In this document: piece after piece, positions 3,654 to 28,167 of the stretch
Layout of the letters: each line of letters starts with the position of its first letter
Position numbering within the stretch: the stretch's first letter is position 1
Origin: Bacillota bacterium
Lineage (GTDB): Bacteria; Bacillota; Dethiobacteria; DTU022
Length of the DNA stretch: 64,000 nucleotides
Direction: 5' to 3'
Assembly: GCA_046483445.1 (NCBI GenBank)
Contig: JAWODD010000025.1
Coordinates: forward strand, 3,636 to 67,635
The notes under the pieces: model-generated
What the model saw: only the letters and a program-made list of their open reading frames with translations
Told to the model about the DNA's origin: nothing
The model's database searches: none
Translations under genes and position numbers: made by a program

Positions 3654-3739
3654 TGTTTGTGTTGTTTATAATAGTGGAAATATAAAAAATGCGACAACAA
3701 CGTGACAGGAACTTAACTTAGATTGAGGGGTGTTATTAA

Positions 3740-4639: not shown

Positions 4640-4654
4640 GAGGTGGATTTACTA

Positions 4655-7600: not shown

Positions 7601-7720
7601 GGATTTAAAGGTATGAGCAACGGCTCCATAACCAATGATTTGAGCGCATCAGTCGGTGATGCCAATACCACCATTCCAGAGTCCAAGGCATTTCTGTGCA
7701 ATATAAGGAGGGCTGTATAA
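4655..7720 (+). CDS. fdhA: Tat-exported Mo/W selenocysteine formate dehydrogenase alpha subunit (FdnG-like), Sec at TGA 5255-5257
   Basis: TRRSFLK Tat motif; CTFCGVGC...[43 protein letters not shown] joins 4643..5257 and 5306..7720 in frame; RGQSNVQG; C-terminal molydop-binding domain. Confidence 0.96.
5255..5285 (+). promoter_or_regulatory. SECIS element of fdhA
   Basis: TGA followed by CGCCG-GTCT-CGGCG hairpin; GGTCT starts 19 nt after the TGA. Confidence 0.8.
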
Positions 7721-8512: not shown

Positions 8513-8529
8513 CACGGGGGTGAAATCAA

Positions 8530-9843: not shown

Positions 9844-9878
9844 TAATTTGTATTGATGGGAAAAGGAGGTAAAAAATA

Positions 9879-10859: not shown

Positions 10860-10967
10860 GGAACGGTAGCTACTAAATTGATCTGCAAAATTTATATTAG
10901 GACATATTGTTATAAAAGCAGTACTTAAATAGGATAGCAGAAGTTAAAAAAAGCATAAAATGTTTAG

Positions 10968-11011
10968 AATTTAGAAGGCTGTTGGGAAACAAACCAACAG
11001 CCTTCTAAATT
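10968..11011. terminator. Bidirectional terminator between rnfD and the mrp operon
   Basis: Long perfect inverted repeat AATTTAGAAGGCTGTTGG / CCAACAGCCTTCTAAATT between convergent genes. Confidence 0.85.
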
Positions 11012-11047
11012 TCGATGCCGGGAAATGAAACGGGTTTTCCGGCTAGA

Positions 11048-13039
11048 TTATATGAGCAGTGAAAGGCCGAAACGCAGGAAAAAGGCGACGGCTAGAATTA
11101 TGCTGAGGGCAATTAAAACCAAAGTCATATCAAACTCAATGTTCCTGATATTGATAGACCTGAACAGGGTCGACTCCCCGGGCCGATAGTCGACATTTTG
11201 TAGTAACAAGAATATTCTATTGAAGAGGCGTTGAGAAAAGATACTTAAATAATTTTGCACTGCTATAAAGGGCAAGGTTAAAATGGTCCATAAAACTACA
11301 GCCAGCCTGAAGGTAAGTACACCGTAATATTCAAGACCCAGCCAATATGGAATGCTCAAATTAAAAAGGCCGGAATAGCGGGCCAGGAAAAACAAAACAG
11401 TGCCAAGCCCCAGGGCAAGCGCGACAGCGGTTAAGTCTTTAACTATGAACAGGTTGGTATTTGACAGATATTCTACCAGGTGAGGATCAAGGGTAAAGGC
11501 GTTCAAAGCGGGAACAATCAGATTGTGCAGGATAAAATATGGCGATATGCCGATGATAATCATGCTGACAGCCAGTGTGCCCATGCTAATCTTCATCAGA
11601 AGCGGTTCAGTCTTAATTTTGCCAGGGTTGGTTTGCGCTGGACGCCAAAAGGTAAAGTAAAGGAATTTTAAAAAGTAACAGACTGTACCGGCGCTGGTTA
11701 GAGTAAAGATTTTTTCAGCAATATAAAGGGAATAGACGTGGTGGTGTTCATAAGCTTCGACGATAGCGTGGTGTAGAAGAGTTTTACTGGCGTAACCGTT
11801 AAAAAGGGGCATCCCAACTATACCAAGGGAAGCAATTAGAACTACAATCGTTGTAAAAGGCATTGTTTTTTTCAAATCACCCAATCTACGCATGTCAAGT
11901 TCACCAGTCAAAAAGGCAATAGATCCGGCGGCAAGGAAAAGGGTAGATTTAAAAAACGCATGGTTAAATACATGGTAAGTTGCCCCGGCAATGCCCATGG
12001 CCCCTTCGTAACCCAGGTATGCTCCTACGCCTGCACCCATTATAATATAGCCGATCTGGCTGATACTACTGCAGGCAAGAAGCTTCTTGATGTTATTTTG
12101 TAATAAAGCTAAGAAAAATCCCAAAAACATTGTTATAATACCGATCCAAATAATCAGGTATCCCCATTCGGCAACCTCCGTTTGGAGGCTGGTGGCCCAT
12201 GTAATAATATCTGTACCGGTCGTGCTTGCTTCGGGGGTATAAATCAGACTGATTGTCCGAATAATGCCGTAAGCCCCGGTTTTAATCATAATCCCTGAAA
12301 GTAAAGCGCTGGCCGGAGCAGGAGCTACCGGGTGAGCCCTGGGTAGCCAGATATGAAGTGGAATCATCCCGGCTTTAATACCAAAACCGATGATCATTAA
12401 AGCGGCAGCAACAATATAATAATTATCCAGACCTTCAAGTAAACAAGACTGGGGTGCAATAGTTAGAGAACCACATTGAAAATAAAAAAGCCCAATCCCC
12501 GTAAGGAGACACATTCCTCCGAAAATTCCCAGGTAAAGGTAGAGATTGCCCGCGCTTACGGCTTCTTTTGTTTGGGTATGGACAACAAGCACATAAGAGG
12601 CCAGTGACATCAATTCAAAAAATAAAAGCAGGGTTAGCAAATCCCCGGCCAGGGGAACACCGACCGTTCCGCAAAGAGTTAACATGAAAAAAGCGAAAAA
12701 ACGGCCCCGGTTTTCTTCATGGTTCATATACTCAAGGGCAAAGATTGTAGCCGTAAACCATACAAATGAAATAATCAGGGCGAAAAGAAAACCAAATTCA
12801 TCGACCCGAAAGAAGAAGTTGTAAGGGGTTACAATCATGGGTAATTTAAATGTAATAATCTGTCCCTGTGCCAGGCTTAAATACATCAGAGCAACTGAAA
12901 TCAGAGTGCCTGCACTGCCAATGATTGACCAGCTATTGCGCCACCAGGGAACATCCTGGGCAAAGATAATCATCATAAAAGAGAAAAGAGGTATGATTAC
13001 AGCTATAAGTGGTAGATATGGGAACAACTCCTGGAGCAT
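11048..13039 (-). CDS. Mrp antiporter-like pump subunit, long (terminal) type with ~54-aa lateral segment
   Basis: FFELMSL, GFGIKAG..PLHIWLPRAHPVAP, LLACSSISQIG, HAFFKS, SKTLLHHA; C-terminal extension and final TM helix. Confidence 0.88.
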   Translation of the reverse strand: MLQELFPYLPLIAVIIPLFSFMMIIFAQDVPWWRNSWSIIGSAGTLISVALMYLSLAQGQIITFKLPMIVTPYNFFFRVDEFGFLFALIISFVWFTATIFALEYMNHEENRGRFFAFFMLTLCGTVGVPLAGDLLTLLLFFELMSLASYVLVVHTQTKEAVSAGNLYLYLGIFGGMCLLTGIGLFYFQCGSLTIAPQSCLLEGLDNYYIVAAALMIIGFGIKAGMIPLHIWLPRAHPVAPAPASALLSGIMIKTGAYGIIRTISLIYTPEASTTGTDIITWATSLQTEVAEWGYLIIWIGIITMFLGFFLALLQNNIKKLLACSSISQIGYIIMGAGVGAYLGYEGAMGIAGATYHVFNHAFFKSTLFLAAGSIAFLTGELDMRRLGDLKKTMPFTTIVVLIASLGIVGMPLFNGYASKTLLHHAIVEAYEHHHVYSLYIAEKIFTLTSAGTVCYFLKFLYFTFWRPAQTNPGKIKTEPLLMKISMGTLAVSMIIIGISPYFILHNLIVPALNAFTLDPHLVEYLSNTNLFIVKDLTAVALALGLGTVLFFLARYSGLFNLSIPYWLGLEYYGVLTFRLAVVLWTILTLPFIAVQNYLSIFSQRLFNRIFLLLQNVDYRPGESTLFRSINIRNIEFDMTLVLIALSIILAVAFFLRFGLSLLI

Positions 13040-13041
13040 CT

Positions 13042-14523
13042 TTAGTTACCTCCCAAATGAAACAGGTACTCGGCAATATTATGAAAATAAGGGACTGTTA
13101 ATTGCAGGTTCGCACCGATTACCAGGCACCCTGCAACCAGAACCAATATCGGTATCAACATTGAAAGGGGAGCTTCAGTGCCTTTGACCGAGTCAAACTC
13201 ACCCTTTTTGAAAAAGGCGGCAATTACAATTGGTAAAAAGTAGGCGGCATTTAAAAGGGCGCTGCCAATTAAAACAGCCACAAAAATCGGGGCTCCGCTT
13301 TCAAGGCTGCCCTGGATTAAATACCACTTGGAAATAAATCCGTTAACCGGGGGAATTCCGATCATTCCGATAGAAGCGATCGTGAAAGCAATCATAGTCA
13401 GCGGCATTCGTTTGCCCAGACCATTTAGTTCACTAATATTCTTTTTTCCAGTTACTGTAATTATGGCCCCGGCGCAAAAGAAAAGGGTAATTTTTAAAAG
13501 GGCATGGTTAATGATATGCAAGAGGCCGCCGGTCAGGCCGATTATATTAAATAGTCCGGCCCCGAGGGTGATATAACCCAGCTGACTTATGGTTGAAAAG
13601 GCCAATCTTCGTTTGAGGACATCCTGCTGTAAGGCAATAATTGAGGCTACAATGATTGTAATGGAAACAAGTCCCGCCACGAAAAAACCCATTTGCAAAC
13701 CAATCAAGGCAGTTATACCAAAAACAGAGTACATTATACGCACAATACCAAAAACACCGGACTTTACTACTGCTACAGCATGAAGCAGGGCGCTGACCGG
13801 AGTTGGTGCCACCATGGCAGCTGGAAGCCATGCATGGAGGGGCATAATGGCTGCTTTAACTCCAAAACCGACAATGAAGCAAATAAAGGCGATTTGCCAC
13901 AGTATCAACGAACCGCTGGAAAGATCTACAATTCCGCCTCTGGTAAACTCAAGAGTGCCTACAGAGCCGTATGTTAAAATTAAACCGATCAAAATTAAAC
14001 CAGCGCCAAAAAAGCTGTAGATCAGGTACTTAATACCGGCTAATTTAGCTTCTTTGTTACCTTCATGAATAACAAGCGGATAAGTAAATATTGTCAAAAA
14101 TTCATAAAATAGGTATAATGTAAGCAGGTTTGATGCAAAAGCTATACCCATAGTCATGCTTAAGGAAAGGAGGTAAAAAATATAATAGCGGCGGCGATTG
14201 TGTTCATGGGCCATGTAACCTGTTGAGTAAAGAACGGAAAAAAACCAGAGAATACCGGCCGTTCCAGCAAATAAAGCGGCAAAGGGTTCCACTCGCAGCT
14301 TTACTTCCAGTCCTGGGACGATCCGATGAATTAAAATCTCCCAATTGCCTAGATAAGAAAAGTGGTACAACATATAAGCCACAGCCAGTGCACTAGCCAG
14401 GCTTATAAGGGTTACCACGGGATTGCGCAAACGATCATTATTTTCCGGAATCAGGCTGGTAAGCAGTGCTCCAGCCAGGGGAAAGAGTATTAAGAACACT
14501 GGTAAATAATATGCAAATTCCAT
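13042..14523 (-). CDS. Mrp antiporter-like pump subunit, short, NuoL/MrpA-type signature
   Basis: WLPAAMVAPTPVSALLHAVAVVKSG, LKRRLAFSTISQLG, NGFISKW. Confidence 0.88.
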   Translation of the reverse strand: MEFAYYLPVFLILFPLAGALLTSLIPENNDRLRNPVVTLISLASALAVAYMLYHFSYLGNWEILIHRIVPGLEVKLRVEPFAALFAGTAGILWFFSVLYSTGYMAHEHNRRRYYIFYLLSLSMTMGIAFASNLLTLYLFYEFLTIFTYPLVIHEGNKEAKLAGIKYLIYSFFGAGLILIGLILTYGSVGTLEFTRGGIVDLSSGSLILWQIAFICFIVGFGVKAAIMPLHAWLPAAMVAPTPVSALLHAVAVVKSGVFGIVRIMYSVFGITALIGLQMGFFVAGLVSITIIVASIIALQQDVLKRRLAFSTISQLGYITLGAGLFNIIGLTGGLLHIINHALLKITLFFCAGAIITVTGKKNISELNGLGKRMPLTMIAFTIASIGMIGIPPVNGFISKWYLIQGSLESGAPIFVAVLIGSALLNAAYFLPIVIAAFFKKGEFDSVKGTEAPLSMLIPILVLVAGCLVIGANLQLTVPYFHNIAEYLFHLGGN

Positions 14524-14561
14524 TGCTTCCTATTCCTCTCTCTATAGATGTTATCTTGGTT

Positions 14562-14882
14562 TTATTTTTCTTTGTGGTTTGTACTTCTGGTCCCCCAGAC
14601 CAACATAATTGAAACTACTGCCACAAAAAGTACAGTTGATTCCATTAGGGTATCGTAGCCCCTGTAGTCAAGCAAAACGTTCGATACCAGGTTTGTTCCT
14701 CCACTCTCTTCAACGCCTTCATAAACATAACGTTCCCAAACCTGGTTAAAAGGAGGATTATCAGGATTGCCGTACTGGGGCATCTCGGCAACGGTTAGCA
14801 TGAGCATAAAAGCAATTATTGATACCAAAATTAATGCCATGATGAAAAACAGTATTCGATGCGTTAAATTCATTGCGGCCAC
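14562..14882 (-). CDS. Mrp/Mbh small subunit (MbhE/MnhB N-terminal type)
   Basis: GGTNLVSNVLLDYRGYDTLMESTVLF motif. Confidence 0.85.
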   Translation of the reverse strand: MAAMNLTHRILFFIMALILVSIIAFMLMLTVAEMPQYGNPDNPPFNQVWERYVYEGVEESGGTNLVSNVLLDYRGYDTLMESTVLFVAVVSIMLVWGTRSTNHKEK

Positions 14883-15136
14883 CTCCCGACTTTTGTTACC
14901 ACGGTAACTAATAAAACTGTCATACCGATCCCAACAGCTGCTTCAGTGATGGCCAGATCAGGAGAATGTAACTGCTGCCAGATCAATGACATGATCATGC
15001 TGTAAGCTCCAAAAATGATCACGATATATAGCAGATCATTAAAAATAAAAATTGAGATGGTTAGAACGATGAGAACAATTAAGAGTAAAAACATCAAAAG
15101 ATCAATAGCCAGAATATTATTCAAGAGTGTCCTCAT
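14870..15136 (-). CDS. Mrp/Mbh small subunit (DUF4040/MbhD type)
   Basis: QLHSPDLAITEAAVGIG motif; start uncertain (15136 or 15124). Confidence 0.8.
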   Translation of the reverse strand: MRTLLNNILAIDLLMFLLLIVLIVLTISIFIFNDLLYIVIIFGAYSMIMSLIWQQLHSPDLAITEAAVGIGMTVLLVTVVTKVGRWPQ

Positions 15137-15506
15137 CTCCTTTCCTGGTAACTTTAAAACGAGTTCTTTTTCTGCGGCGCTGTTTGGCAACATAATCGTT
15201 AATTAAAAAGCTTTCTTTGAACATCGGTGTGTTCCTGTTAAAGGCTGTTTTGGCAATAAGATGAGTAATAATCGGGTTAATAGTGGAAATCATTATCCCG
15301 ATTAAAATTAACTTTGTTATATTGGTTACATCCCAAATTAACAGCATCAAAGCTATTAGTAAGAGACCGGCGCCAAGGGTATCGCACTTACCCATGGCGT
15401 GCATGCGGGTATAGAGATCAGGGAGCCTGAGAAGCCCCACCACACCGACAAGCAGAAAAAAAAGCCCGCCGAACAAAAAGAAAACAGCAATATATTGGAG
15501 TACCAT
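15117..15506 (-). CDS. mrpG: Na+/H+ antiporter subunit G
   Basis: GLLRLPDLYTRMHA.GKCDTLG, NPIITHLIAK. Confidence 0.92.
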   Translation of the reverse strand: MVLQYIAVFFLFGGLFFLLVGVVGLLRLPDLYTRMHAMGKCDTLGAGLLLIALMLLIWDVTNITKLILIGIMISTINPIITHLIAKTAFNRNTPMFKESFLINDYVAKQRRRKRTRFKVTRKGDEDTLE

Positions 15507-15542
15507 TTATTTCACCCCGGTTTACGGTTTTTAAGCCGTTAC

Positions 15543-15809
15543 TTAAAAAATTTGCCCTTCACGCAAAAGTTTTAGAATGCATAGCGTACTTATAAATGTG
15601 CCCAAAACAAATACAAAGGCGACATCTATGTAATAATAGCTTTGATCAAGATAGGCAAAAATTAAAATAATCATGACAACGTTGGTGGTTATGACGTTTA
15701 TTGCTACCAGGCGGTCTAAAGCCGATGGTCCAATGTAAGCTCTAACTATTGCAATAAGGGAAATTATTATCAGGCTGATTACCGCACCATAAAGTATATT
15801 TATGATCAT
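15543..15809 (-). CDS. mrpF: Na+/H+ antiporter subunit F
   Basis: RAYIGPSALDRLVA, YIDVAFV..L..FIST. Confidence 0.9.
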   Translation of the reverse strand: MIINILYGAVISLIIISLIAIVRAYIGPSALDRLVAINVITTNVVMIILIFAYLDQSYYYIDVAFVFVLGTFISTLCILKLLREGQIF

Positions 15810-16327
15810 TTTTTGTAGTCACTCTCCAAGATTGATAATCTTTGATAAAGAGGCCATTCTTCGATTTCATGCGCATAATCTATTGTAAAAGCATGGACGA
15901 TCAGCAAGTTATCTTCCAGTTCCACAGTAATAGTTCCCGGACATAAGGTAATTGAATTAGCATAAAGAACCCTGAGCAAGCTTCTTTCCAGGTCGCAGCG
16001 CATGATTACTATACCTGGAGATATCGGTAAGCGAGGATTTAAGACAATCTTTGCTACGGTTATATTGGCCATAATAATTTCTACAGCCAGCAGTATAAAA
16101 TACTTGATTAGCCTAAATAGCTGTTTAATTGTAAACTTTGTTCTGTATTCGGTTGAAATGCTTATATTACTCCAAATAACTGTAAGGATTGAGCTAAATA
16201 TTGCCCCGGCCAGAATGTGCTGCCAATCTATGCTTGCTGATATGAGCAACCAGAATGTCATCAGTATAGTGAAAATTACTAGTGCGCCTAATGGATCATG
16301 TTTTATTTTTGCCAGCACATCAATCAC
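15806..16327 (-). CDS. mrpE: Na+/H+ antiporter subunit E
   Basis: EII.ANI.VAKIVL...ISPGIV, ANSITLCPGTITV. Confidence 0.92.
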   Translation of the reverse strand: MIDVLAKIKHDPLGALVIFTILMTFWLLISASIDWQHILAGAIFSSILTVIWSNISISTEYRTKFTIKQLFRLIKYFILLAVEIIMANITVAKIVLNPRLPISPGIVIMRCDLERSLLRVLYANSITLCPGTITVELEDNLLIVHAFTIDYAHEIEEWPLYQRLSILESDYKK

Positions 16328-16349
16328 CTCCTATGGGTTCGCGGTTAAA

Positions 16350-17858
16350 TTAAAGAAGCACCGCTACGGTCTTGTTTATAAAATTAAGCGCTGTGGCCGG
16401 GAATATTCCCAGATAAATAATGCCGACGGCAACAATAACTATAGGAACCAGCATACTGAGAGGCACCTGATCTTTCGTAAACTTTCTGTTTTCCTCAGTA
16501 TAACTGTGTTCATTTTCTTGATTCTGGGAAAAATAAGCCTGACCGATAATTGGAAAATAATATGTTGCATTTAACAAACCGCTTAAAATAATAACTAAGA
16601 TAAGCAGCGGTAAATTAGCTTCCATGCTCCCAAGAGCCAGGCCATATTTGCTGATAAACCCTCCAAATAAGGGAATGCCGACCATAGAAAATGAAGCCAC
16701 TGTAAAAGCACCCATAGTTATGGGCATAGAGTAACCTATGCCGGTAAACTGGTTGACCTGCTTACGCCCGGTTTGGTATGCGACAGCACCTGCGCAAAGG
16801 AAAAGGCAGGTCTTCATTAATGCATGCACAATTATATGGAGCATTCCAGCTGCTAAACCCCAGGAGGTGCCCAGCCCAATACCTAAAAATACATAACCGA
16901 TTTGAGCTACAGTAGAATATGCCAACCGCCTTTTGAGTTCAATTTGCACAAAAGCAAAGAAAGACCCGGCAAGCATTGCGATAACTGCCAGAGCTATTAT
17001 CAAATTACGGATAAAAGTCTCATGGAATATTTCTAATCCGAAAGCAATCAATAGAATTTTTACAAAAGCGATTATATATACTTTAACTACCAGGCTGGAA
17101 AGTATGGCACTGGAAGGAGAAGGAGCTGAAGAGTGAGCATCAGGTAACCACAAATGTAAGGGAAACAGGGCTGCTTTGACCCCAAACCCGACTAATAAAA
17201 AGCTTAAAGTAGTCCAGATCAGGACAGGATAAGAATCTTTTACCCGGGCCAGTTCCTGGGCAATAAAATTAATGTTCAATTGTCCGGTAATCATATAGAT
17301 AAACCCAATTGCAAATAAAATAAAGCCGGATCCAATCGTTGCCAGAAGAAGATACTTCAGCGCCGCTTCAGTGGAAAGACGGGTACCTTTGGCGACAACG
17401 AGAGCACAAGCGCTGATCCCGGTAATTTCGATCAGTACATACATATTAAAAATATCATTAGAAATAACCAATCCTATCATACCTGTCAAACATAATAAAA
17501 AGGCAGTATAGTACCACCCGGTGACAATTCGCTCCAGTTCATGTTTAACAGCGGAAAAGCTGTAAATAATGATTAAAAGGGAGACTCCAGAAATCATGAC
17601 AATCATCAAGCTCGATAAAGATTCGACCACAATTTCAATGCCCCATGGGGGATCCCATCCTGCCACAGAGTAACTAATAGCTCCATTTTGCACGACAAGA
17701 TTAGCAATGATCAGGGTAATGATAAAGACTGTTCCGGTAACCAGGGTGGCAAAAGGAGCGCAGAATTCTTTTTTCCATCTAGCCAAAACTGGCATGCTAA
17801 AAGAGGCAATTAGTGGGATGATCACGCAATAAAAAGGAAGCTTAGATACTGTATCCAT
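16350..17858 (-). CDS. mrpD: Na+/H+ antiporter subunit D
   Basis: GWDPPWGIE, DIFNMYVLIEI, KAALFPLHLWLPDAHSSAP, KRRLAYSTVAQIG; follows mrpC. Confidence 0.9.
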   Translation of the reverse strand: MDTVSKLPFYCVIIPLIASFSMPVLARWKKEFCAPFATLVTGTVFIITLIIANLVVQNGAISYSVAGWDPPWGIEIVVESLSSLMIVMISGVSLLIIIYSFSAVKHELERIVTGWYYTAFLLCLTGMIGLVISNDIFNMYVLIEITGISACALVVAKGTRLSTEAALKYLLLATIGSGFILFAIGFIYMITGQLNINFIAQELARVKDSYPVLIWTTLSFLLVGFGVKAALFPLHLWLPDAHSSAPSPSSAILSSLVVKVYIIAFVKILLIAFGLEIFHETFIRNLIIALAVIAMLAGSFFAFVQIELKRRLAYSTVAQIGYVFLGIGLGTSWGLAAGMLHIIVHALMKTCLFLCAGAVAYQTGRKQVNQFTGIGYSMPITMGAFTVASFSMVGIPLFGGFISKYGLALGSMEANLPLLILVIILSGLLNATYYFPIIGQAYFSQNQENEHSYTEENRKFTKDQVPLSMLVPIVIVAVGIIYLGIFPATALNFINKTVAVLL

Positions 17859-17871
17859 TTAGTGGCACCTC

Positions 17872-18231
17872 TTATTTTAATTTCATAAAATTTGGAGCGG
17901 ATATTGTTCCATAATATATATATAATTTAACGATCAAAGCCAGAGCAAAAGCGGTTACACTAAAACTGACAACGATTCCGGTTAACATCATCACAGATGG
18001 AAGGGGGTTAACATAAAGAGCATCACTGTATTGAGGATCATATATAGGAGGTACTCCACCTTGAACATTTCCAATGGCAATAAAAAAAAGGAAAATAGCT
18101 GTTTCCATAATATTTATACCGATAACCTTTTTAATTAAGTTGGTTTGAGTTAACACAATCAGGGTTCCTATGGAAAATAAGATTATTGAGACGAAATAAG
18201 GAAAATTGTAAAGTAAAAAATGGAGAGTCAC
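17872..18231 (-). CDS. mrpC: Na+/H+ antiporter subunit C
   Basis: NLIKKVIGINI, NPLPSVMMLTGIVV. Confidence 0.92.
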   Translation of the reverse strand: MTLHFLLYNFPYFVSIILFSIGTLIVLTQTNLIKKVIGINIMETAIFLFFIAIGNVQGGVPPIYDPQYSDALYVNPLPSVMMLTGIVVSFSVTAFALALIVKLYIYYGTISAPNFMKLK

Positions 18232-18234
18232 AAT

Positions 18235-18630
18235 TTAGGCCTCCTCGCTAATCATATAAAACACGCCCAAAATGGTGCTGGCTACTAACATGCCTATGCC
18301 AAAGTTTGAGACTGAAATAATGCCTACACTAAAAAGAGTTCCTGGAATTCCGATTGGACCGTGTTCATGAGGAATAATGAATTTTAATGTCTCTAGAATG
18401 CCACCTAAGCCAACAAAAATGATGGCTGAATTTAGGATCATGTGTCTGAAGGTGATATTCCATAATTGGCCAAATATTAAAATATACAGCAGGAATCCCA
18501 GTCCAACAATCATACCGCCTGAAAAGCCGCCACCGGGGGAGATATGACCGTGCATAATCACGTAGATGCCGTAAAGAATAACAAAAAGAAGCATATAACG
18601 AAAGACAACTCTTGTTGCATAATCTTGCAT
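18235..18630 (-). CDS. mrpB: Na+/H+ antiporter subunit B
   Basis: HGHISPGGGFSGG; RBS AAAGGAG before ATG 18630. Confidence 0.88.
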   Translation of the reverse strand: MQDYATRVVFRYMLLFVILYGIYVIMHGHISPGGGFSGGMIVGLGFLLYILIFGQLWNITFRHMILNSAIIFVGLGGILETLKFIIPHEHGPIGIPGTLFSVGIISVSNFGIGMLVASTILGVFYMISEEA

Positions 18631-19023
18631 TTGTAAGCTCCTTTCCCAACAAAAGCAGAAGATGTGATTTAAAAACAGTTGCCGCAAAAATGATTTGAAA
18701 ATTTTGCAAGTTCATATATTCACAAAATTATGCAAAAAAAATCCGTTTTTCGGATCTATATGCCGGTCAGCAGACTCAAATTAGCCAACCGTAAAAGTAT
18801 ACTCAATTCTACTGTTCTATTTTTTATCATTTTCTGCTTCCTGTCAAGGTATTTTTGGAAAAAACCACATTTCGCTATAGTAATAAACTTCTATATTTGC
18901 ATTACATACCGAAAAGTATTATTTTTGCCTCTCTGTAGATCTGTATGTAATGTAATTATTATCACCGCAAACGATTTAAATTCCACGGAAGTGTAAACAA
19001 TTCACTGATTTATAACCTATAAA

Positions 19024-19050
19024 GAAGGATATGGAAAACCAAAAGCGAAT
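19024..19050 (+). promoter_or_regulatory. Putative sigma-H-like promoter of the five-pump operon
   Basis: GAAGGATAT-N11-AGCGAAT fits RNAGGAWWW-N11/12-RNNGAAT. Confidence 0.55.
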
Positions 19051-19089
19051 AAAAATCCTGATTAGTTTAAAAAATAGAAGGGTTAACTG

Positions 19090-21243
19090 ATGACAGATAT
19101 CTTTACAATAGAGATTAATGAAATGTCAGTAAAAAGTATGTTGCCCCTGCTAATTGTACTTTTCCCAATTATCGGTTCTTTGTTAATAGGGTTTGTGGGC
19201 TTGAATTTCACTCGGCTGCGTGATGTACTGGCTGTCAGTATTGCCGGTTTAACATTTTACTTAACGTTGGAACTTTTTTTGACTGCTTTGGAAGGTTACA
19301 CAGTATATTTTGATTTGCCCCCGCTTGCTGGTATAGCGATGAGTTTTAAAGTGGATCTTTTTGGCAGCGTTTTTGCTCTTTTTTCCGCCTTTATCTGGTT
19401 TTTGGCCACGCTTGTTTCCCTCCCTTACATGCTTCATGAAGAAAGGCAAACCCGTTACTATGTTTTTCTAATTTTATCGCTTGGTGGCTGTCTGGGAGTT
19501 TTTCTTACCGAAGATTTTTTAAGCCTGTTGATATTTTTTGAACTTATGACTCTGGCCGCTTATGCCCTGGTGGTTCACAACCAGACTAGGGAAGCAATTT
19601 CTGCAGGCGGCAATTACTTATATCTTGGAGTGATTGGGGGTCTTTCCCTGCTTAGCGGGATTATCCTTCTTAGCAGCTACACCGGCACTGTGACTATCTC
19701 TCCCATGCTGCAGGATATAACAGAATTAAAAGGGGTTGCTGCCCTGATAGCGTTATTAATGATTGTCGGCTTTGGGGTTAAAGCAGGGATGGTTCCGCTC
19801 CATATCTGGTTGCCCCAGGCCCATCCGGTTGCTCCTACGCCGGCCAGCGCTTTACTTTCAGGGGTGATGATTAAGGCCGGTGCTTACGGTATAATTAGGG
19901 TTGTTAATATGCTTTATACTCCTTCTCGCAGCCTGGCTGAAACAAATCTGTGGGTTTATACCGAAAACCTTGGCCATGTCATAATCTGGATAGGGATTAT
20001 AACCATGATTTCTGCTGCTTTGATGGCAGTACTGCAGAACAATGCCAAACGTCTTTTGGCTTACAGCAGTATCAGCCAGATGGGCTATATATTAATGGGG
20101 ATAGGTGCTGCCGGTTACCTGGGTTATGATGGACCGATGGGATTTGGAGGGTTTTCGTATCATATCCTTAACCATGCTTTTTTTAAGTCAGGAATGTTTA
20201 TTTTATTTGGGATTATTTATGCCCGCCTGCATGAAAAAAGACTTGATCATTTGGGGGGCTTGTGGAACAAGTTTCCATGTACTTTTATAGCTTTTGCCGT
20301 TTGTGCAGCAGGCATTACCGGCATACCCGGTTTTAACGGTTATGTTAGTAAAACCTTGTTGCATCATGCTATTGAGTATGCTTATGAGCATCATCATCTC
20401 TGGGACTTATGGTTGGCTGAAAAACTATATGTTTTTACAAGTGGACTGACTGTCTGCTATATTGCCAAGCTTTTTATTTCCTTATTTCTGGGGCCTCGTA
20501 GCCCCAGCATCGATAAAAAACTAGAAAGTACCGCAGGTGGGGAAACCTGGATCGAAAAAGTAGTTGCTCTCTCTTTTATAGGAACAATTATCTATTTGGG
20601 CCTGTCGTCATCATTTATACTTAAAAACCTTATCACCCCAATGGGTGCGACATTTACCTATTCTGATTATTATTTAAGCTACCTGGCAGATACAAGTGTC
20701 TGGCATTTGCAAGATTTAACCGGGGTTGCTATTGCCTTTCTTCTTGGCGCCGGAATCTTTGTGTTCTTAAAAATAAAGGATCTTTTTGCCTACAGCCCTC
20801 CTCCATATCTGAGTGTCGAGCGTTCTATCTACAAGCCTTCAACTAAATTTCTTAAAATGTCGTTTACCAGGGTGGGTCGCTCTGTAGACGATATCTTGAA
20901 TATGGGCTTTCATGCTACACCGGTTCTGCTTAAAAAAACCTCTTTAAATGCCGATTATTTGGATGATCGCTATTTTAGAAGTATAGGTATAGCAATTGTA
21001 TGTTTTACGGCGGATTCCTGGGATAAGATCTACTATTTATGGACAAATAATCTCAATAGATATTTAATTAATCTGAAAAAAAACTGGCGAAGGTTATTCA
21101 TGTTACTTTTTAAATTTGATTACAGTGCGCGGGGTGATCGGCGATTTCAAGTTATTAGTGTCTCAAATATCGATTTTGACTTATACGTTATACTAATTAT
21201 TATCGGGGTGATATTAGCCGCAAGTCTGCTTGTTTTCATTTAA
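19090..21243 (+). CDS. Antiporter-like pump subunit, long type with ~107-aa lateral segment
   Basis: Paralog of 11048..13039 (WLPQAHPVAP, SKTLLHHAIEYAYEHHH). Confidence 0.88.
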   Translation: MTDIFTIEINEMSVKSMLPLLIVLFPIIGSLLIGFVGLNFTRLRDVLAVSIAGLTFYLTLELFLTALEGYTVYFDLPPLAGIAMSFKVDLFGSVFALFSAFIWFLATLVSLPYMLHEERQTRYYVFLILSLGGCLGVFLTEDFLSLLIFFELMTLAAYALVVHNQTREAISAGGNYLYLGVIGGLSLLSGIILLSSYTGTVTISPMLQDITELKGVAALIALLMIVGFGVKAGMVPLHIWLPQAHPVAPTPASALLSGVMIKAGAYGIIRVVNMLYTPSRSLAETNLWVYTENLGHVIIWIGIITMISAALMAVLQNNAKRLLAYSSISQMGYILMGIGAAGYLGYDGPMGFGGFSYHILNHAFFKSGMFILFGIIYARLHEKRLDHLGGLWNKFPCTFIAFAVCAAGITGIPGFNGYVSKTLLHHAIEYAYEHHHLWDLWLAEKLYVFTSGLTVCYIAKLFISLFLGPRSPSIDKKLESTAGGETWIEKVVALSFIGTIIYLGLSSSFILKNLITPMGATFTYSDYYLSYLADTSVWHLQDLTGVAIAFLLGAGIFVFLKIKDLFAYSPPPYLSVERSIYKPSTKFLKMSFTRVGRSVDDILNMGFHATPVLLKKTSLNADYLDDRYFRSIGIAIVCFTADSWDKIYYLWTNNLNRYLINLKKNWRRLFMLLFKFDYSARGDRRFQVISVSNIDFDLYVILIIIGVILAASLLVFI

Positions 21244-21288
21244 ATTTAAACTTTACAGGGTTTAGAAGTAGAGCTGGAGGAGATAATT

Positions 21289-22761
21289 TTGCACCTGGCA
21301 TTTCCACAACCAATTATAGCTGTTATTGTCCCGGTTATAGGAGCCGTAGTTATCCGTTATCTTGATCATGATCAGGCTCGTGAACGTCACCTGTGTGCTT
21401 TGCTGTCAGTTGGTATTGTGTTTCTGTCCGTGGTCAGTATGTTCCCGGCGGTACTTGCCGGAAAGTTAATTGAGGTTCGGATGTTTGAGTTTCTCGAGGG
21501 CCTGGGTATATATTTCAAAATTGATCTCCTGGGCATGGTTTTTGGTTTAATTTCATCCAGTCTCTGGGTTTTCGCTACAGTCTATTCAATTGGTTACATG
21601 GCCCATGAACATGCCCAGCGTAATTATTTTGTCTTTTTTGTGCTTTCCTGCAGTGCTGCCATGGGGGTTGCTTTTGCCGGTAATCTATTTACTCTTTATA
21701 TTTTTTACGAGTACCTGACCATTTGCACCTACCCTCTTGTCGTTCATGCCCAGACCGTAGAATCGACTAAAGCGGGAATCAAGTATATCAGTTACAGCTT
21801 GAGCGGTGGTGCGCTGGTATTATTATCAATATTTATGATTCATGATCTTGCCGGGACCCTTGAATTTGCTCCCGGGGGGATTTTTAATGGTATTGGAGGA
21901 GACAGTTTTAACCTGATCAGTGTAATTTTTATCCTTCTCATTGCCGGTTTTGGTACCAAGGCGGCAATTATGCCTTTGCATTCATGGCTCCCGGGGGCCA
22001 TGGTTGCTCCTACCCCGGTTAGCGCTTTACTTCATGCTGTGGCTATTGTAAAGGCCGGGGTTTTTGGTATATCCAGGGTATTTTTTTCAATTTACGGCCG
22101 TGATCTGCTGTTAGAGTTAAACGTAGTTAATATTTTGGCAGTGTTTGTTTGTTTTACTATCCTGGTAGGTTCATTTGTGGCTATCAAGCAAACAGTTTTA
22201 AAGTTAAGGCTGGCTTATTCGACTATAGGGCAGTTGGGCTACATTACATTGGGAATGCTGCTTTTTTCCCAGGCCGGGATGATTGGCGGATTAATTCATC
22301 TTATTAACCATGCCGTCCTCAAAATTACTCTTTTTTTCTGTGCAGGAATGATAATTACAGTTACCGGTAAAAAAGATATTAACCAAATGCATGGAGTTGG
22401 CAGGCAAATGCCGCTGACTATGCTGGCATTTTCTATCGGTGCCCTCGGCTTAATGGGCGTTACCCCTATTTGCGGTTATATCAGCAAATACTACTTGCTG
22501 ACGGGGAGCTTGGAAGCAGGTATGCCAGTTTATGCTTATGTTATTTTGGGCAGCACTATTCTTAACTCAATTTATTATCTTCCTATAATCGTTAATGCCT
22601 TTTTTAAGGAAGGAAAATTCGAGAAAAAAGACGGTTGGGAAGCTCCATTGACAATGTTGGTGCCGACCGTTATCCTGGCTATTTTAGCAATCATTTTTGG
22701 TCTTTTTGCCAACTATACTACAATACCTTTTATTGAGACCGTCCTTAAATCGGTCTTATAG
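21289..22761 (+). CDS. Antiporter-like pump subunit, short, NuoL/MrpA-type signature
   Basis: WLPGAMVAPTPVSALLHAVAIVKAG; paralog of 13042..14523. Confidence 0.88.
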   Translation: MHLAFPQPIIAVIVPVIGAVVIRYLDHDQARERHLCALLSVGIVFLSVVSMFPAVLAGKLIEVRMFEFLEGLGIYFKIDLLGMVFGLISSSLWVFATVYSIGYMAHEHAQRNYFVFFVLSCSAAMGVAFAGNLFTLYIFYEYLTICTYPLVVHAQTVESTKAGIKYISYSLSGGALVLLSIFMIHDLAGTLEFAPGGIFNGIGGDSFNLISVIFILLIAGFGTKAAIMPLHSWLPGAMVAPTPVSALLHAVAIVKAGVFGISRVFFSIYGRDLLLELNVVNILAVFVCFTILVGSFVAIKQTVLKLRLAYSTIGQLGYITLGMLLFSQAGMIGGLIHLINHAVLKITLFFCAGMIITVTGKKDINQMHGVGRQMPLTMLAFSIGALGLMGVTPICGYISKYYLLTGSLEAGMPVYAYVILGSTILNSIYYLPIIVNAFFKEGKFEKKDGWEAPLTMLVPTVILAILAIIFGLFANYTTIPFIETVLKSVL

Positions 22762-22786
22762 TTTTTTGGGGAGGAGAAACAGGAAG

Positions 22787-24262: not shown

Positions 24263-24360
24263 GCTCGCTTTAAGATTTTAATTACTGGTGAATTTACGCT
24301 AATCGGATTTTTAAAGATTTGTGATAATTTAGAGTAAAGGCCCTCTGGAGGTGAGGACTA

Positions 24361-25878: not shown

Positions 25879-25986
25879 TACCCGAATAATTTATTCTATA
25901 TTTGTATAAATGATCGATAACTGGATTAGCGTTATTCTCTTTAATTAACTTGAAGAATTGGTTAAATCAAAAGGAGAAGGTAGCAG

Positions 25987-28167
25987 ATGACAGGATCAGT
26001 TTCTGACAATATAATTAACAGCAGTCTACCTCTGGCAATTGTTCTGATTCCTATCATTAGTTCTGCCCTGGTCCCGTTGACCGGTTACCTTCATTACCGT
26101 TATAGGAATGCCCTGGTTTTATTTGTTACAGCTTTTTCCTTGGTCCTTTCCGGGTATCTTTCTTATCTCGTATGGCAGGTCGATGTGATCAGTAAATTTT
26201 CTCTCGGTTTTGGTGAATTCCCCTTGTTCTTTCGAGTTGATCGCCTGGGAGCGGTATTTAACCTTATTACAGCTTTAATCTGGTTTTTAGCTTCCATTTT
26301 TTCTCTTTCCTACATGACCCATGAAAAAAGGCATTCGCGTTACTATACTTTTTATTTGTTAACTCTCGGTGGTTGTCTTGGAGTATTTCTTGCTGCAGAT
26401 TTATTCAGTCTGTTGTTATTTTTTGAACTGATGTCGCTTGCTTCGTACCTTTTGGTTATCCATACTCAAACTAACGAGGCAATGAAAGCAGGAAAACAAT
26501 ATCTTTTCCTTGGTGTATTTGGGGGCCTTTGTATCCTGGCCGCCACCATCATGGTTTACTGGTATATCGGGACAGTGGAGATTACTCCTATGCTGGAACA
26601 ACTGGTTCTTATACCGGTCCGCACCCTGGTTGCCGCCCTTTTTGTGATTGGATTTGGGATAAAAGCGGGGATGGTGCCTCTGCATATTTGGCTCCCCAAG
26701 GCTCATCCGGTAGCACCATCTCCGGCCAGTGCTCTTCTTTCAGGAATCATGATTAAAACCGGGGCATACGGAATTGCCCGGGTCGCGACTGTACTTTATA
26801 CACCCTCTGAACCGGGATTTTCCGAAATGGGGGCCTATACTGAACATCTTGGTTTTGTATTAATCTGGTTGGGTGTTATCACCATGACTACCGGTGCATT
26901 TATTGCTCTTTTCCAGAATAATGCCAAACGGCTTCTGGCCTACAGCAGTATCAGCCAGATGGGATATATTATAATGGGGATAGGGACAATAGCTTATCTC
27001 GGCTTTGACGGTCCAATGGCCATGGGCGGGTTTTCCTGGCATGTTATCAACCATGCTTTTTTTAAAGCAGGCATGTTTATGATGGTTGGGGCGATTTACT
27101 TCCACACCGGTGAAATTGAATTGAAGCGCATGGGTGGACTGTGGCGCACCTTTCCTGTAACAGCGGTTGTCTTTTTAATCGCGGCGATGGGTATAGCCGG
27201 AATTCCAGGCTTTAATGGTTATACCAGTAAAGTGATGCTTCATCATGCCCTGGTGGAGGCCTACGAGCATCATGATTCTTATCTCCTCTACCTGGCTGAA
27301 CGCATGTTCATACTGACCGGTACAATCACTACCTGCTATATTGCCCGCCTTTTTAGCTCTATATTTTTAGGGAAAAAACCTGAAGGACTACCTACAATTC
27401 AAAGAGAGCGCTGGAATGAAAGGTTAGTCTTTATAGTTATCGGGTCGGCTATCCTTTTTATTGGGACCAACCCCTTTTTAATGTTGAAGGAAATTATCGG
27501 ACCCCTGGTTCAGTCGTTTCCGTTTGACGAATATTATTTCAATTACATGATGGAACTCAACTTTTGGGACAGGCATGATTTAGAAGTTATGGGTGCAATA
27601 ACTGCCGGAGCTGCCGTTATTTTCGTCCTTGGTAACCGCTTTGAGCTTTTTACTCGTAAATTACCCTACTGGCTCAGTATTGAATATCTGCTCTATCAAC
27701 CGGTGGTTTGCACTTTTTCCTATTTATATGTTTGCAGTGGAAGGGCCTTGGAAAATGCTGTTGATTCAGCCTACATTCAAAGTCCCCGGTTATTAGCATA
27801 CTTTTGCATCGGAGGAAAAATGATCGATAGAACAGCGGAAAGCGTGCTCGTAGGCACTATGCAACCGCTTAAAATGTGCAGTTACCAGATTAGTGCCCTT
27901 GATAACAGTGGACCGGCCTTCTTCCGGATGCTGATGCTGCTAACTGCACTTATCCTAAAAATTTATAATTTCTGGTTGCTGTTATTAGAAATAATTTTCA
28001 AGAGCACCAAGAAAATGCTGCTGGTTGCATTTTACTTTTTGTTTGGTATGGATTATTCTTTCAAAGGGAAAATATACTACATAATCAATACTTCAAATTT
28101 TGAATACTACTTGCTGGTGTTTTATTTCCTTTTAATCCTAATCCTTATCCTGCAGTTTGTCATGTAG
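25987..28167 (+). CDS. Antiporter-like pump subunit, long type with ~130-aa lateral segment
   Basis: WLPKAHPVAP, SKVMLHHALVEAYEHH; longest C-terminal extension of the three. Confidence 0.88.
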   Translation: MTGSVSDNIINSSLPLAIVLIPIISSALVPLTGYLHYRYRNALVLFVTAFSLVLSGYLSYLVWQVDVISKFSLGFGEFPLFFRVDRLGAVFNLITALIWFLASIFSLSYMTHEKRHSRYYTFYLLTLGGCLGVFLAADLFSLLLFFELMSLASYLLVIHTQTNEAMKAGKQYLFLGVFGGLCILAATIMVYWYIGTVEITPMLEQLVLIPVRTLVAALFVIGFGIKAGMVPLHIWLPKAHPVAPSPASALLSGIMIKTGAYGIARVATVLYTPSEPGFSEMGAYTEHLGFVLIWLGVITMTTGAFIALFQNNAKRLLAYSSISQMGYIIMGIGTIAYLGFDGPMAMGGFSWHVINHAFFKAGMFMMVGAIYFHTGEIELKRMGGLWRTFPVTAVVFLIAAMGIAGIPGFNGYTSKVMLHHALVEAYEHHDSYLLYLAERMFILTGTITTCYIARLFSSIFLGKKPEGLPTIQRERWNERLVFIVIGSAILFIGTNPFLMLKEIIGPLVQSFPFDEYYFNYMMELNFWDRHDLEVMGAITAGAAVIFVLGNRFELFTRKLPYWLSIEYLLYQPVVCTFSYLYVCSGRALENAVDSAYIQSPRLLAYFCIGGKMIDRTAESVLVGTMQPLKMCSYQISALDNSGPAFFRMLMLLTALILKIYNFWLLLLEIIFKSTKKMLLVAFYFLFGMDYSFKGKIYYIINTSNFEYYLLVFYFLLILILILQFVM

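What the first reader, a model, noticed from the sequence alone, without database searches (positions are those of the whole stretch)
11048..28167. Possible 'gear-shifting' Mrp antiporter: eight pump subunits and three alternative end caps with ruler-length lateral helices
Seen: one set of small Mrp subunits (B, C, E, F, G, DUF4040, MbhE-like) but eight NuoL/M/N-family subunits. Five are short (~490-505 aa) and three are long paralogs (663, 717, 726 aa). The long ones share anchors on both sides of a variable segment: (Y/P)(W/Y)L..E before it, and DY....I...N.(E/D)(F/Y) plus a final TM helix after it. Hand counts of that segment give about 54 aa (11186-11347), 107 aa (20803-21123) and 130 aa (27667-28056), roughly 2x, 4x and 5x 26 aa. 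Established: the NuoL/MrpA amphipathic lateral helix clamps the neighbouring pump subunits, and complex I homologs with an extra pump have a lengthened helix; 26 helical residues span about 39 A, near one pump module. Inference: the core operon (2 short + cap-54) builds a 3-pump complex, and the divergent operon (3 more short + cap-107 + cap-130) allows 5- and 6-pump versions. The longest ruler (5 units) equals the number of short subunits available (5). This would let one cell change H+/Na+ stoichiometry with pH or energy state. No redox subunits are encoded in either operon.
Basis: partly seen in the sequence, partly recalled or inferred. Interest (0 to 1): 0.92.

Follow-up and report, generated by a model that had tools for sequence, protein, structure and literature searches.

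The report
Enlarged modular Mrp antiporter locus
This is a real and conserved pair of back-to-back operons that adds five extra pump subunits to a complete sodium/proton antiporter, probably giving an unusually long version of the machine, but nothing yet shows that the cell swaps end caps to change gear.

Summary
The minus strand (18687 to 11048) holds a complete split-MrpA Mrp operon: MrpB, C, D1, E, F, G, MbhD-like, MbhE-like, D2 and a 663-aa MrpA-like subunit. The plus strand (19090-28167) holds a pump-only operon: L717, three short pumps, L726. The segments of 54, 107 and 130 aa are counted correctly.

The 15-gene locus recurs in nine complete loci from related genera. Ortholog lengths are almost fixed: 19 of 20 L717 relatives have 716-718 aa, and 14 of 21 L726 relatives have exactly 726 aa. 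No NuoH, NuoD or NuoB homologue was found in the genome.

The ruler idea is only partly supported.
- For: a helix of about 118 aa goes with four short pumps in a self-contained operon of one relative. In other relatives the core operon has no cap at all, so pump-only operons must supply caps in trans.
- Against: part of the helices is built from a 25-aa unit whose copy number does not track pump number. One relative has three pump genes and six units. Both long caps are also co-transcribed.

Alternative caps and gear shifting remain untested. I found no description of such loci in print.

The parts
18235..18687 (-). MrpB-like subunit, first gene of the minus-strand core operon. Orthologues are often 131 aa, so the start may be an internal Met.
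   Evidence: PF04039 MnhB, E 8e-17; orthologue lengths
17872..18231 (-). MrpC / NuoK-like subunit
   Evidence: PF00420, E 9e-23
16350..17858 (-). S502, a short pump of the MrpD1 type. It is the only member of this clade in the window and is encoded directly after MrpC.
   Evidence: PF00361, E 2e-63; clade with c29_S492
15806..16327 (-). MrpE
   Evidence: PF01899, E 5e-30
15543..15809 (-). MrpF
   Evidence: PF04066, E 2.5e-11
15117..15506 (-). MrpG
   Evidence: PF03334, E 2e-25
14870..15193 (-). MbhD-like subunit (DUF4040), the first part of the MrpA C-terminal domain. Orthologues are mostly 79 aa.
   Evidence: PF13244, E 2e-13; homology of MbhD+MbhE to MrpA-C from passages of PMC7419157
14562..14882 (-). 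MbhE-like subunit, the second part of the MrpA C-terminal domain
   Evidence: PF20501, E 2e-8
13042..14523 (-). S493, a short pump of the MrpD2 type; closest paralogue is S490 (48% identity)
   Evidence: PF00361; identities and tree
11048..13039 (-). L663, MrpA-like cap of the core operon. C-terminal extension of 148 aa; 68 aa from the W anchor to TM16.
   Evidence: PF00361 and PF00662
11186..11347 (-). Its first half is as hydrophobic as a TM helix.
18688..19089 (.). Divergent control region with sequence blocks conserved in 13 orthologous loci, including a TTGACA box for the minus operon and a conserved leader before L717
   Evidence: no Rfam match
19090..21243 (+). L717, MrpA-like, first gene of the pump-only operon. 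C-terminal extension of 195 aa; 118 aa from the anchor to TM16.
   Evidence: PF00361
20803..21123 (+). It is amphipathic (30 charged residues among the 119 of residues 572-690) and holds one 25-aa motif unit.
21289..22761 (+). S490, MrpD2-type short pump
   Evidence: PF00361
22697..24262 (+). S521 ORF, an MrpD2-type short pump of about 491 aa, probably starting at an internal Met
   Evidence: PF00361; orthologues mostly 491 aa
24361..25878 (+). S505, MrpD2-type short pump; closest paralogue is c29_S511 (47% identity)
   Evidence: PF00361
25987..28167 (+). L726, MrpA-like, last gene of the pump-only operon. C-terminal extension of 215 aa; 142 aa from the W anchor to TM16.
   Evidence: PF00361 and PF00662
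27667..28056 (+). It holds two 25-aa motif units and then a hydrophobic stretch around residues 645-675.

Best explanation
The locus encodes a modular, enlarged Mrp-type cation/proton antiporter.

The minus operon is a self-sufficient three-pump Mrp of the split-MrpA kind: MrpB, C, E, F, G, MbhD-like and MbhE-like as the small-subunit module (the putative cation path in the solved Mrp structure), then pumps S502, S493 and L663.

The plus operon is an accessory cassette of pumps only: two MrpA-like caps and three MrpD2-like subunits. It has no small-subunit module of its own. It therefore has to be built onto a core of the minus-operon kind, most likely next to S502, the only MrpD1-type pump. 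The result would be a long arm of five or six proton-channel subunits.

The C-terminal TM15, lateral helix and TM16 of each cap would brace the arm, as in MrpA and NuoL. Helix lengths of 68, 118 and 142 aa are fixed by selection to fit particular assemblies.

A longer arm should move more H+ per cation, which would help acidify the cytoplasm at high external pH.

Shown: gene content, conservation, length constancy, dependence of such cassettes on a separately encoded core in relatives, and no homologue of complex-I/hydrogenase coupling subunits found.

Inferred: physical assembly, arm length, stoichiometry, and whether L717 and L726 cap separate complexes or brace the same one. I put those two options at about even odds.
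For: Gene content:
- Pfam content of both operons.
- All 11 pumps of the genome keep the aligned Glu/Lys/Lys/Lys columns. That these are the TM5, TM7, TM8 and TM12 channel residues is my recall.
- No match to PF00146, PF00346 or PF01058 in a genome scored 100% complete; the same searches ring in 11 of 14 control genomes.

Conservation:
- The complete 15-gene divergent arrangement occurs in 9 loci: L080 and L081 and L089, L091, L092, L094, L095, L096 and L101.
- The L726-type C-terminus matches at E of 1.5e-21 or better in 28 of 72 family genomes, G000 included.
- Lengths: 19 of 20 L717 relatives have 716-718 aa. 14 of 21 L726 relatives have exactly 726 aa, although their C-terminal parts are only 44-57% identical to L726.
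- 3 of those 21 carry one extra 25-aa unit at the same point, and it is a near copy of the unit before it.

Dependence on a core encoded elsewhere:
- In G026, G029 and G093 the core operon ends after MbhE with no D2 and no cap (L117-L119). The only other pumps outside the rnf-type cluster lie in a separate pump-only operon, S-L-S-S-L.
- In G065, G068 and G069 the L-S-S-S-L operon lies apart from the core.

A long arm occurs elsewhere:
- G120 has D1 plus three D2 plus one cap (helix 116 aa) in a single operon with the small subunits.

Fold and literature:
- Foldseek puts the L717 model nearest MrpA and NuoL/ND5/NdhF chains, with 660-770 aligned columns.
- Passages of PMC7419157 say MrpA braces the complex with helix HL between TMH15 and TMH16.
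- Passages of PMC9040806 say a 26-aa insertion in HL accompanies an extra pump in complex I variants.
Against: - No structure or biochemistry exists for this locus. Both AlphaFold models are weak: L726 has mean pLDDT 42.6, and L717 has 63 with nearly all of the extension beyond residue 588 under 50. The lateral-helix geometry is therefore not shown.
- Helix length is not a general pump counter in this clade.
- Relatives in the same genus (G003, also G011 and G013 in part) put four short pumps and a cap in one operon with the small subunits. Their cap helix is 171-173 aa, not 118.
- Stretches of the L663 and L726 segments reach a hydropathy of 1.8 over 19 residues, as high as TM15.
- No RNA data were available.
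Confidence: 0.5

Rival explanations
1. The three caps are mutually exclusive ends of three complexes with 3, 5 and 6 pumps that share one core, and the cell shifts between them to change H+/Na+ stoichiometry.
For: - If L663 (68 aa) is taken to span two short pumps and each 25 aa adds one, the helices give about 2, 4 and 5. Five short pumps are available.
- G120 shows a cap with a 116-aa helix and exactly four short pumps.
- In G026 and G093, which have four short pumps outside the rnf-type cluster and no fifth, both caps of the pump-only operon have 120-aa helices. The 141-aa class was seen only where a fifth short pump (S493 type) exists, apart from one locus cut by its contig end (L116), whose pump content is unknown.
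- All three caps share the motif before TM16, which suggests one kind of docking site.
- The divergent promoters could set the short form against the long forms.
Against: - L717 and L726 are co-transcribed in every locus seen, so the 5-pump and 6-pump forms could not be set apart by transcription.
- Helix length does not track pump number elsewhere: G036 has four short pumps and 173 aa, G022 has two and six units, and two short pumps go with 34 to 209 aa.
- G100 has five short pumps, but its long cap has 118 aa.
- The offsets needed for the arithmetic differ between lineages.
Confidence: 0.2
2. Helix length has no link to pump number. The three caps are paralogous isoforms, for example with different ion preference, stability or partners, and their extensions grew by repeat expansion for other reasons.
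For: - The 25-aa unit expands to 4-6 copies in Mrp operons with only two short pumps: own C29 cluster 4, L005 5, L072 6, G022 6 with only three pump genes in the genome.
- L726 differs from L717 mainly by one such unit.
- 3 of 21 L726 relatives have yet another unit.
Against: - Length is strictly constant in most orthologues.
- The 115-121-aa class recurs with the S490/S521/S505 triple in five different operon layouts.
- A cassette with three extra short pumps needs some brace.
Confidence: 0.15
3. All eight pumps form one fixed megacomplex with relayed or nested lateral helices.
For: - The two operons stay adjacent and divergent in 9 complete loci.
- The commonest Mrp operon layout among the loci of Alkaliphilus, Natronincola, Tindallia, Serpentinicella and Proteiniclasticum has two MrpA-like subunits in series after one short pump.
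Against: - In those relay operons each helix is short (29-35 aa). By the same logic one of L717 or L726 should be short, and neither is.
- In G065, G068 and G069 the operons are apart.
- In G100, G120 and family f3 the sets differ in pump number.
Confidence: 0.07
4. The plus-operon pumps work with another partner, such as the neighbouring Tat formate dehydrogenase with its RnfC/RnfD-like genes or the Rnf complex, as a redox-coupled ion pump rather than as part of Mrp.
For: - RnfC/D-like genes lie next to the L663 end in 11 orthologous loci.
- In G069 the stand-alone L-S-S-S-L operon lies beside FdhE-like, TatC and MobA genes.
- The second Mrp cluster of the genome is fused to rnfCDGEAB.
Against: - The formate dehydrogenase operon is convergent, not co-transcribed.
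- No NuoH-like coupling subunit was found in the genome.
- This synteny was not seen outside the family: no Rnf hits in the loci of G100 and G120.
- Core operons without caps in family f3 need these pumps.
Confidence: 0.08

Closest known systems
Canonical Mrp antiporter (Anoxybacillus flavithermus 6z16, Bacillus pseudofirmus 7qru)
   Same: All seven subunit types are present. MrpA and MrpD chains are among the best sequence and fold matches. Passages of PMC7419157 describe an MrpA-type brace from TMH15 through helix HL to TMH16.
   Different: Here MrpA is split into a pump with brace, MbhD-like and MbhE-like. The core operon has three pumps where the solved structures have two. A further pump-only operon adds two MrpA-like and three MrpD-like subunits. 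The braces are much longer (68, 118 and 142 aa from anchor to TM16).
Mrp-like membrane modules of MBH and MBS (Pyrococcus furiosus 6cfw, 6u8y)
   Same: The best sequence match of L663 and L726 is MbhH (E 4.5e-67 and 1.4e-61). The small subunits match the MbhD and MbhE families.
   Different: No NuoH/MbhM, NuoD/MbhL or NuoB/MbhJ homologue was found in the genome, so there is no hydrogenase or sulfane reductase module.
Complex I variants with extra pumps (Nitrospira 2M complex I; 'Ca. Manganitrophaceae' Complex_I_3 with five pumps)
   Same: Extra antiporter-like subunits go with a longer lateral helix. Passages of PMC9040806, which cite Chadwick et al. 2018, report an insertion of 26 aa. Here L726 relatives gain or lose a 25-aa unit.
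   Different: Those are redox-driven complexes with one cap. Here there is no redox module, three caps in one locus and up to eight pump genes. In sister operons the repeat number is uncoupled from pump number.

Membership tests
Mrp (multisubunit cation/proton antiporter) | MrpA-like pump with a C-terminal TM15, lateral helix and TM16 | tested here: met
   PF00361 and PF00662. The long subunits form one clade. The L717 model is nearest MrpA and NuoL chains. The helix and TM order comes from DSSP of low-confidence models.
Mrp (multisubunit cation/proton antiporter) | MrpD-like second pump | tested here: met
   Five short PF00361 subunits; 7qru_D and 6z16_D are among the matches.
Mrp (multisubunit cation/proton antiporter) | Small subunits MrpB, C, E, F, G and the MrpA C-terminal domain | tested here: met
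   PF04039, PF00420, PF01899, PF04066, PF03334, PF13244 and PF20501, all over their cut-offs. They occur in the minus operon only.
Mrp (multisubunit cation/proton antiporter) | Na+(K+)/H+ antiport activity | not testable with these tools
   This needs expression in an antiporter-deficient strain or reconstitution.
Complex I / MBH / FHL type redox-driven pumps | NuoH-like coupling subunit together with NuoD-like and NuoB-like subunits | tested here: not met
   No match to PF00146, PF00346 or PF01058 in the own genome (scored 100% complete). Controls ring in 11 of 14 genomes.
Lateral-helix 'ruler' (one insertion of about 26 aa per extra pump, as proposed for 2M complex I) | Helix length rises by one unit for each added pump across homologous loci | tested here: inconclusive
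   Fits: 115-121 aa with D1 plus three D2 in G120, G100, G098, G026, G029 and G093; 61-81 aa with two short pumps in the minus-operon type. Does not fit: G036 (four short pumps, 173 aa), L019/L035/L071 (one, 70 aa), L062 (two, 34 aa), the rnf-linked clusters (two, 153-209 aa) and G022.

The most novel reading that the evidence does not exclude
An Mrp antiporter with exchangeable arms. One core (small subunits plus S502) accepts either a short arm (S493-L663) or long arms capped by L717 or L726. The cell could then set the number of proton channels per cation site, and so the H+/Na+ ratio, to suit external pH or membrane potential. The lateral helices would act as length-matched braces built partly from 25-aa units.
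Probability: 0.2. Interest if true: 0.9.

Novelty: new variant of a known kind. Interest (0 to 1): 0.62.

Why it matters
The solved Mrp structures cited here have two pump subunits. The largest pump count that PMC9040806 reports for a complex I relative is five, and it calls that case unique.

It would extend the known range. It also offers a natural series (3, 5 and perhaps 6 pumps; cores without caps; one-cap and two-cap cassettes) for testing how pump number sets ion stoichiometry and what the lateral helix does. Both are long-standing questions for complex I and Mrp.

Many of the closest named relatives belong to alkaliphile genera or MAGs labelled as such. A higher H+ per Na+ ratio would be a plausible adaptation there.

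My four full-text searches found no description of such loci. Subscription journals and supplementary files were not searched.

Tried and rejected
- **AlphaFold2 of L726** with 22 aligned sequences gave mean pLDDT 42.6. For L717 the extension scored under 50. I use neither for geometry, only for secondary structure, with that caveat. Both jobs are spent, so L663 was not folded.
I replaced them with a looser anchor plus a hydropathy-based TM16 call. That measure still failed on some rows, printed as 'None', and TM16 starts vary by about 15 aa among L663 orthologues.
- **C-terminal extension length** measured from a core HMM misled me for G100. Its 120-aa extension hides a helix of about 63 aa, which I counted by eye.
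- **Pfam on the extensions alone:** no family. Only chance-level hits, with E of 0.026 or more, for one of four.
- **Rfam on the intergenic region:** 0 matches at E up to 1.
- **Promoter scan:** 1 site found against 3.0 expected from shuffles.
- **Sequencing runs:** no RNA holder listed; three DNA runs of one study.
- **Internal 25-aa periodicity** is not significant inside L663, L717 or L726 themselves (198, 4 and 68 of 200 shuffles reach the observed value).
- **Tree:** the careful search did not finish, so the quick tree was used.

Full report
**What is there**

The window region 11048-28167 holds two divergent operons.

- The minus strand, in order of transcription from 18687, encodes MrpB, MrpC/NuoK, a 502-aa pump, MrpE, MrpF, MrpG, an MbhD-like (DUF4040) protein, an MbhE-like protein, a 493-aa pump and a 663-aa pump.
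- The plus strand, from 19090, encodes a 717-aa pump, three short pumps (490 aa, an ORF of 521 aa that is probably 491 aa, and 505 aa) and a 726-aa pump.

All eight large proteins match PF00361, and each small one matches its Mrp or MBH family. That is 54, 107 and 130 aa between the stated anchors.

**The genome around it**

The window lies in a 2.15-Mb assembly of 66 contigs, scored 100% complete.

The genome has 11 PF00361 genes: the eight here and three on contig C29. The C29 cluster is a second full Mrp set (E, F, G, MbhD, MbhE, B, C, two short pumps, one long) placed directly behind rnfCDGEAB and followed by apbE.

No match was found to NuoH (PF00146), NuoD/hydrogenase large subunit (PF00346) or NuoB (PF01058). 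The same searches ring in 11 of 14 control genomes. The pumps are therefore not the membrane arm of a complex I, MBH or FHL type enzyme.

The best sequence match of L663 and L726 among solved structures is MbhH, followed by MBS, Mrp and complex I chains. These alignments stop near residue 510-515, before the extensions.

**Kinds of pump**

A quick maximum-likelihood tree of 60 pumps gives three clades (the careful search did not finish):

- MrpD1-like: S502 and the first short pump of C29, always encoded after MrpC.
- MrpD2-like: S490 with S493, S521, and S505 with the second short pump of C29.
- One clade holding every long subunit. L717 and L726 are sister paralogues (53% identity), next to L663 (48%).

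All 11 pumps keep the aligned Glu, Lys, Lys and Lys columns. That these are the TM5, TM7, TM8 and TM12 channel residues is my recall from complex I work. None looks like a dead subunit.

**Conservation**

The closest named relatives of L726 (68% identity) are MAGs labelled Syntrophomonadaceae. More distant ones (about 40%) lie in Alkaliphilus, Natronincola, Tindallia, Serpentinicella, Proteiniclasticum and Spirochaeta records.

The complete 15-gene divergent arrangement, in the same order, is present in nine loci from other genera of the family: L080, L081, L089, L091, L092, L094, L095, L096 and L101. The L726-type C-terminus matches at E of 1.5e-21 or better in 28 of 72 family genomes. Within the window's own genus it does so only in this genome.

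Lengths are almost fixed.

- Among 20 database relatives of the L717 C-terminus, 19 have 716-718 aa.
- Among 21 relatives of the L726 C-terminus, 14 have exactly 726 aa, although that part is only 44-57% identical.
- Measured from a core HMM, the C-terminal extension is 194-196 aa in every L717 orthologue, 215-218 aa in the L726 orthologues and 146-151 aa in the L663 orthologues.

**What the extensions are made of**

Three of the 21 L726 relatives carry an insertion of 25 columns at one point. The insert is a near copy of the preceding 25 residues, of the form ..E..VDS.Y..SPRLL.YYCISG.

The same kind of unit, (L/F)D..(I/L)(D/N)..Y...G followed by about 12 residues, is repeated in tandem in the long subunits of the rnf-linked clusters: four units in the C29 protein, five in L005, six in L072 and four in L017. 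An offset of 24-26 residues gives the top self-similarity there, and 0 of 200 shuffles reach it.

In every cap the first unit starts 26 residues after the W anchor. L717 has one unit, L726 two and L663 none. Inside L663, L717 and L726 themselves the periodicity is not significant. No Pfam family covers the extensions.

**Are they lateral helices?**

Both AlphaFold jobs had shallow alignments.

- The L726 model is poor (mean pLDDT 42.6).
- The L717 model is moderate for the core (mean 63, pTM 0.64) but under 50 for nearly all of the chain beyond residue 588.
- DSSP on these models gives TM15, then long helices (L717: 576-618 and 627-673; L726: 565-598, 600-622, 626-639 and 643-686), then a last TM helix.
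- Foldseek places the L717 model nearest MrpA and NuoL/ND5/NdhF chains, with 660-770 aligned columns.

Hydropathy adds a caveat. L717's segment is amphipathic throughout. Residues about 571-595 of L663 and 645-675 of L726 reach TM-like values (1.8 over 19 residues). A membrane-embedded or TM disposition of those parts is not excluded.

The lateral-helix reading therefore rests mainly on homology with MrpA and NuoL. Passages of PMC7419157 describe HL as bracing the complex between TMH15 and TMH16 and linking the TMH7s.

**Test of the ruler across loci**

I measured the distance from the W anchor to the start of TM16.

| Class | Helix (aa) |
|---|---|
| Both long subunits of the common Alkaliphilus-type operon (EFG-MbhD-MbhE-B-C-S-L-L) | 29-35 |
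| L663 type | 61-81 |
| Intermediate classes | 79-83, 109 |
| L717 type | 115-123 |
| L726 type | 140-145 |
| rnf-linked and other clusters | 153-212 |

In favour of the ruler:

- The 115-121-aa class recurs with the same triple of MrpD2 paralogues in five layouts. In G120 the operon is self-contained: MrpD1 (cut by a contig end), E, F, G, MbhD, MbhE, three short pumps and a cap of 701 aa with a 116-aa helix. That is four short pumps.
- In G100 and G098 a base operon with two short pumps and a cap of about 63 aa (my count) lies beside a convergent S-S-S-L operon whose cap has 115-118 aa.
- In G026 and G093 both caps of an S-L-S-S-L operon have 120 aa, and those genomes have four short pumps outside the rnf-type cluster.

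Against the ruler:

- Two short pumps occur with helices of 34 (L062), 61-81, 83, 153, 160-168 and 209 aa.
- One short pump occurs with 70-82 aa (L019, L035, L071, L038, L046, L065).
- Four short pumps occur with 171-173 aa in G036, and also in G011 if its contigs C167 and C42 adjoin, as G003's intact operon suggests.
- G022, 99% complete, has only three PF00361 genes yet a cap with six 25-aa units.

Helix length is thus not a general counter of pumps in this clade. Within the hydrophobic-helix subgroup the numbers fit in several lineages, but only with lineage-specific offsets.

**Does the plus operon depend on the core?**

It has no small subunits.

- In family f3 (G026, G029, G093) the core operon is B-C-D1-E-F-G-MbhD-MbhE and ends there. 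No MrpD2 or MrpA-like gene follows it (L117-L119). The remaining pumps sit in a pump-only operon on another contig. There the cassette must supply the caps in trans.
- In G065, G068 and G069 the L-S-S-S-L operon lies away from the core, which is on another contig.

This is the strongest evidence that such cassettes are add-on arms for an Mrp core and not independent machines.

**Alternative caps or one assembly?**

For alternative caps:

- Two caps have equal helices in G026 and G093.
- All caps share the motif before TM16.
- One-cap, five-pump operons exist (G120).

For co-assembly:

- L717 and L726 are co-transcribed in every locus seen.
- The 118/141 pairing is conserved across the family.
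- The commonest Mrp operon layout among the alkaliphile loci fetched encodes two MrpA-like subunits in series.

A simple relay, as in those operons, predicts one short helix, which is not seen. A nested arrangement (S502-S490-S521-S505-L717-L726, with both helices reaching the core) fits 4 and 5 units here but not the 120/120 pair in f3. I cannot decide between these. The gear-shifting physiology is untested.

**Control region**

The 402-base spacer holds blocks conserved in 13 orthologous loci. They include a TTGACA box with a spacing that suits a minus-strand promoter, a T-run in the minus-operon leader, and a conserved leader before L717. Rfam finds nothing. No RNA runs were listed.

**Literature**

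Four full-text searches found structural papers on Mrp, MBH and MBS, but no description of Mrp loci with pump-only accessory operons, several caps or repeat-built helices. I read passages, not whole papers, of two.

- PMC9040806 reports a 26-aa HL insertion with an extra pump and calls a five-pump complex I unique.
- PMC7419157 covers the role of HL and the subunit homologies.

Chadwick et al. 2018 is known to me only through the citation in PMC9040806. Subscription journals are not in the library.

**Verdict**

This is a real, conserved and so far undescribed variant of Mrp: a three-pump core plus a five-pump accessory cassette with three caps of fixed helix length. The ruler idea is partly supported, and repeat expansions uncoupled from pump number in sister operons clearly limit it. 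Alternative caps and gear shifting are possible but unproven.

Noticed in passing
L001 (own genome, contig C29:50001-69500), positions 337-14904: rnfCDGEAB is followed directly by a second Mrp operon (E, F, G, MbhD, MbhE, B, C, two short pumps, one long) and then apbE. The same rnf-mrp-apbE order occurs in L005, L010 and L040, and apbE follows the cap in L072 and L110. This suggests a functional or physical Rnf-Mrp link.
   Followed up: partly
L001 11876-13792; L005 9974-12262; L072 3754-6195; L127 1462-3834: The caps of the rnf-linked Mrp clusters carry 4-6 tandem, highly charged 25-aa repeats ((L/F)D..(I/L)(D/N)..YEKSG...) between TM15 and TM16. This is far more than is needed to span two short pumps. 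G022 has only three pump genes and six repeats. No Pfam family covers them and their role is unknown.
   Followed up: partly
window 4643-10859 (+): A Tat-signal molybdopterin formate-dehydrogenase-like gene is interrupted by an in-frame TGA at 5255-5257, in a context I recall as typical of selenocysteine sites. It is followed by a 4Fe-4S subunit, an RnfC-like gene and an RnfD-like gene. An FdhE-like gene (3740-4639) and an FMN_bind gene (976-1338) lie upstream. RnfC/D-like genes lie beside the L663 end in 11 orthologous loci.
   Followed up: partly
window 18688-19089: Conserved blocks lie between the divergent operons in 13 loci. In the window the minus-operon leader has a terminator-like hairpin with a T-run (18757-18739); the T-run is conserved in the other loci. 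This could be an attenuator or an undescribed leader RNA. There is no Rfam match.
   Followed up: partly
L014, L020, L023, L026, L031, L038, L046 and others: The commonest Mrp operon layout among the Alkaliphilus, Natronincola, Tindallia, Serpentinicella and Proteiniclasticum loci fetched is EFG-MbhD-MbhE-B-C-S-L(~680)-L(~617). It has two MrpA-like subunits in series, each with a short helix of 29-35 aa. The first has about 60-75 extra N-terminal residues in the longest ORF.
   Followed up: no
These follow three or more short pumps, and several loci have an unexplained gap of about 3 kb inside the pump row.
   Followed up: no
L017 (record titled Methanosarcinales archaeon, 987-kb 'complete genome'): This Mrp operon has three short pumps and an 832-aa cap with four 25-26-aa repeats. 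It groups with the bacterial ones.
   Followed up: no
L104 (G080) 3218-5416: A cap in the L717 position carries one extra L726-type unit (732 aa), and the S505-like gene lies before it instead of after the other two short pumps. This looks like a natural rearrangement, but the contig ends before a second cap could be seen.
   Followed up: partly
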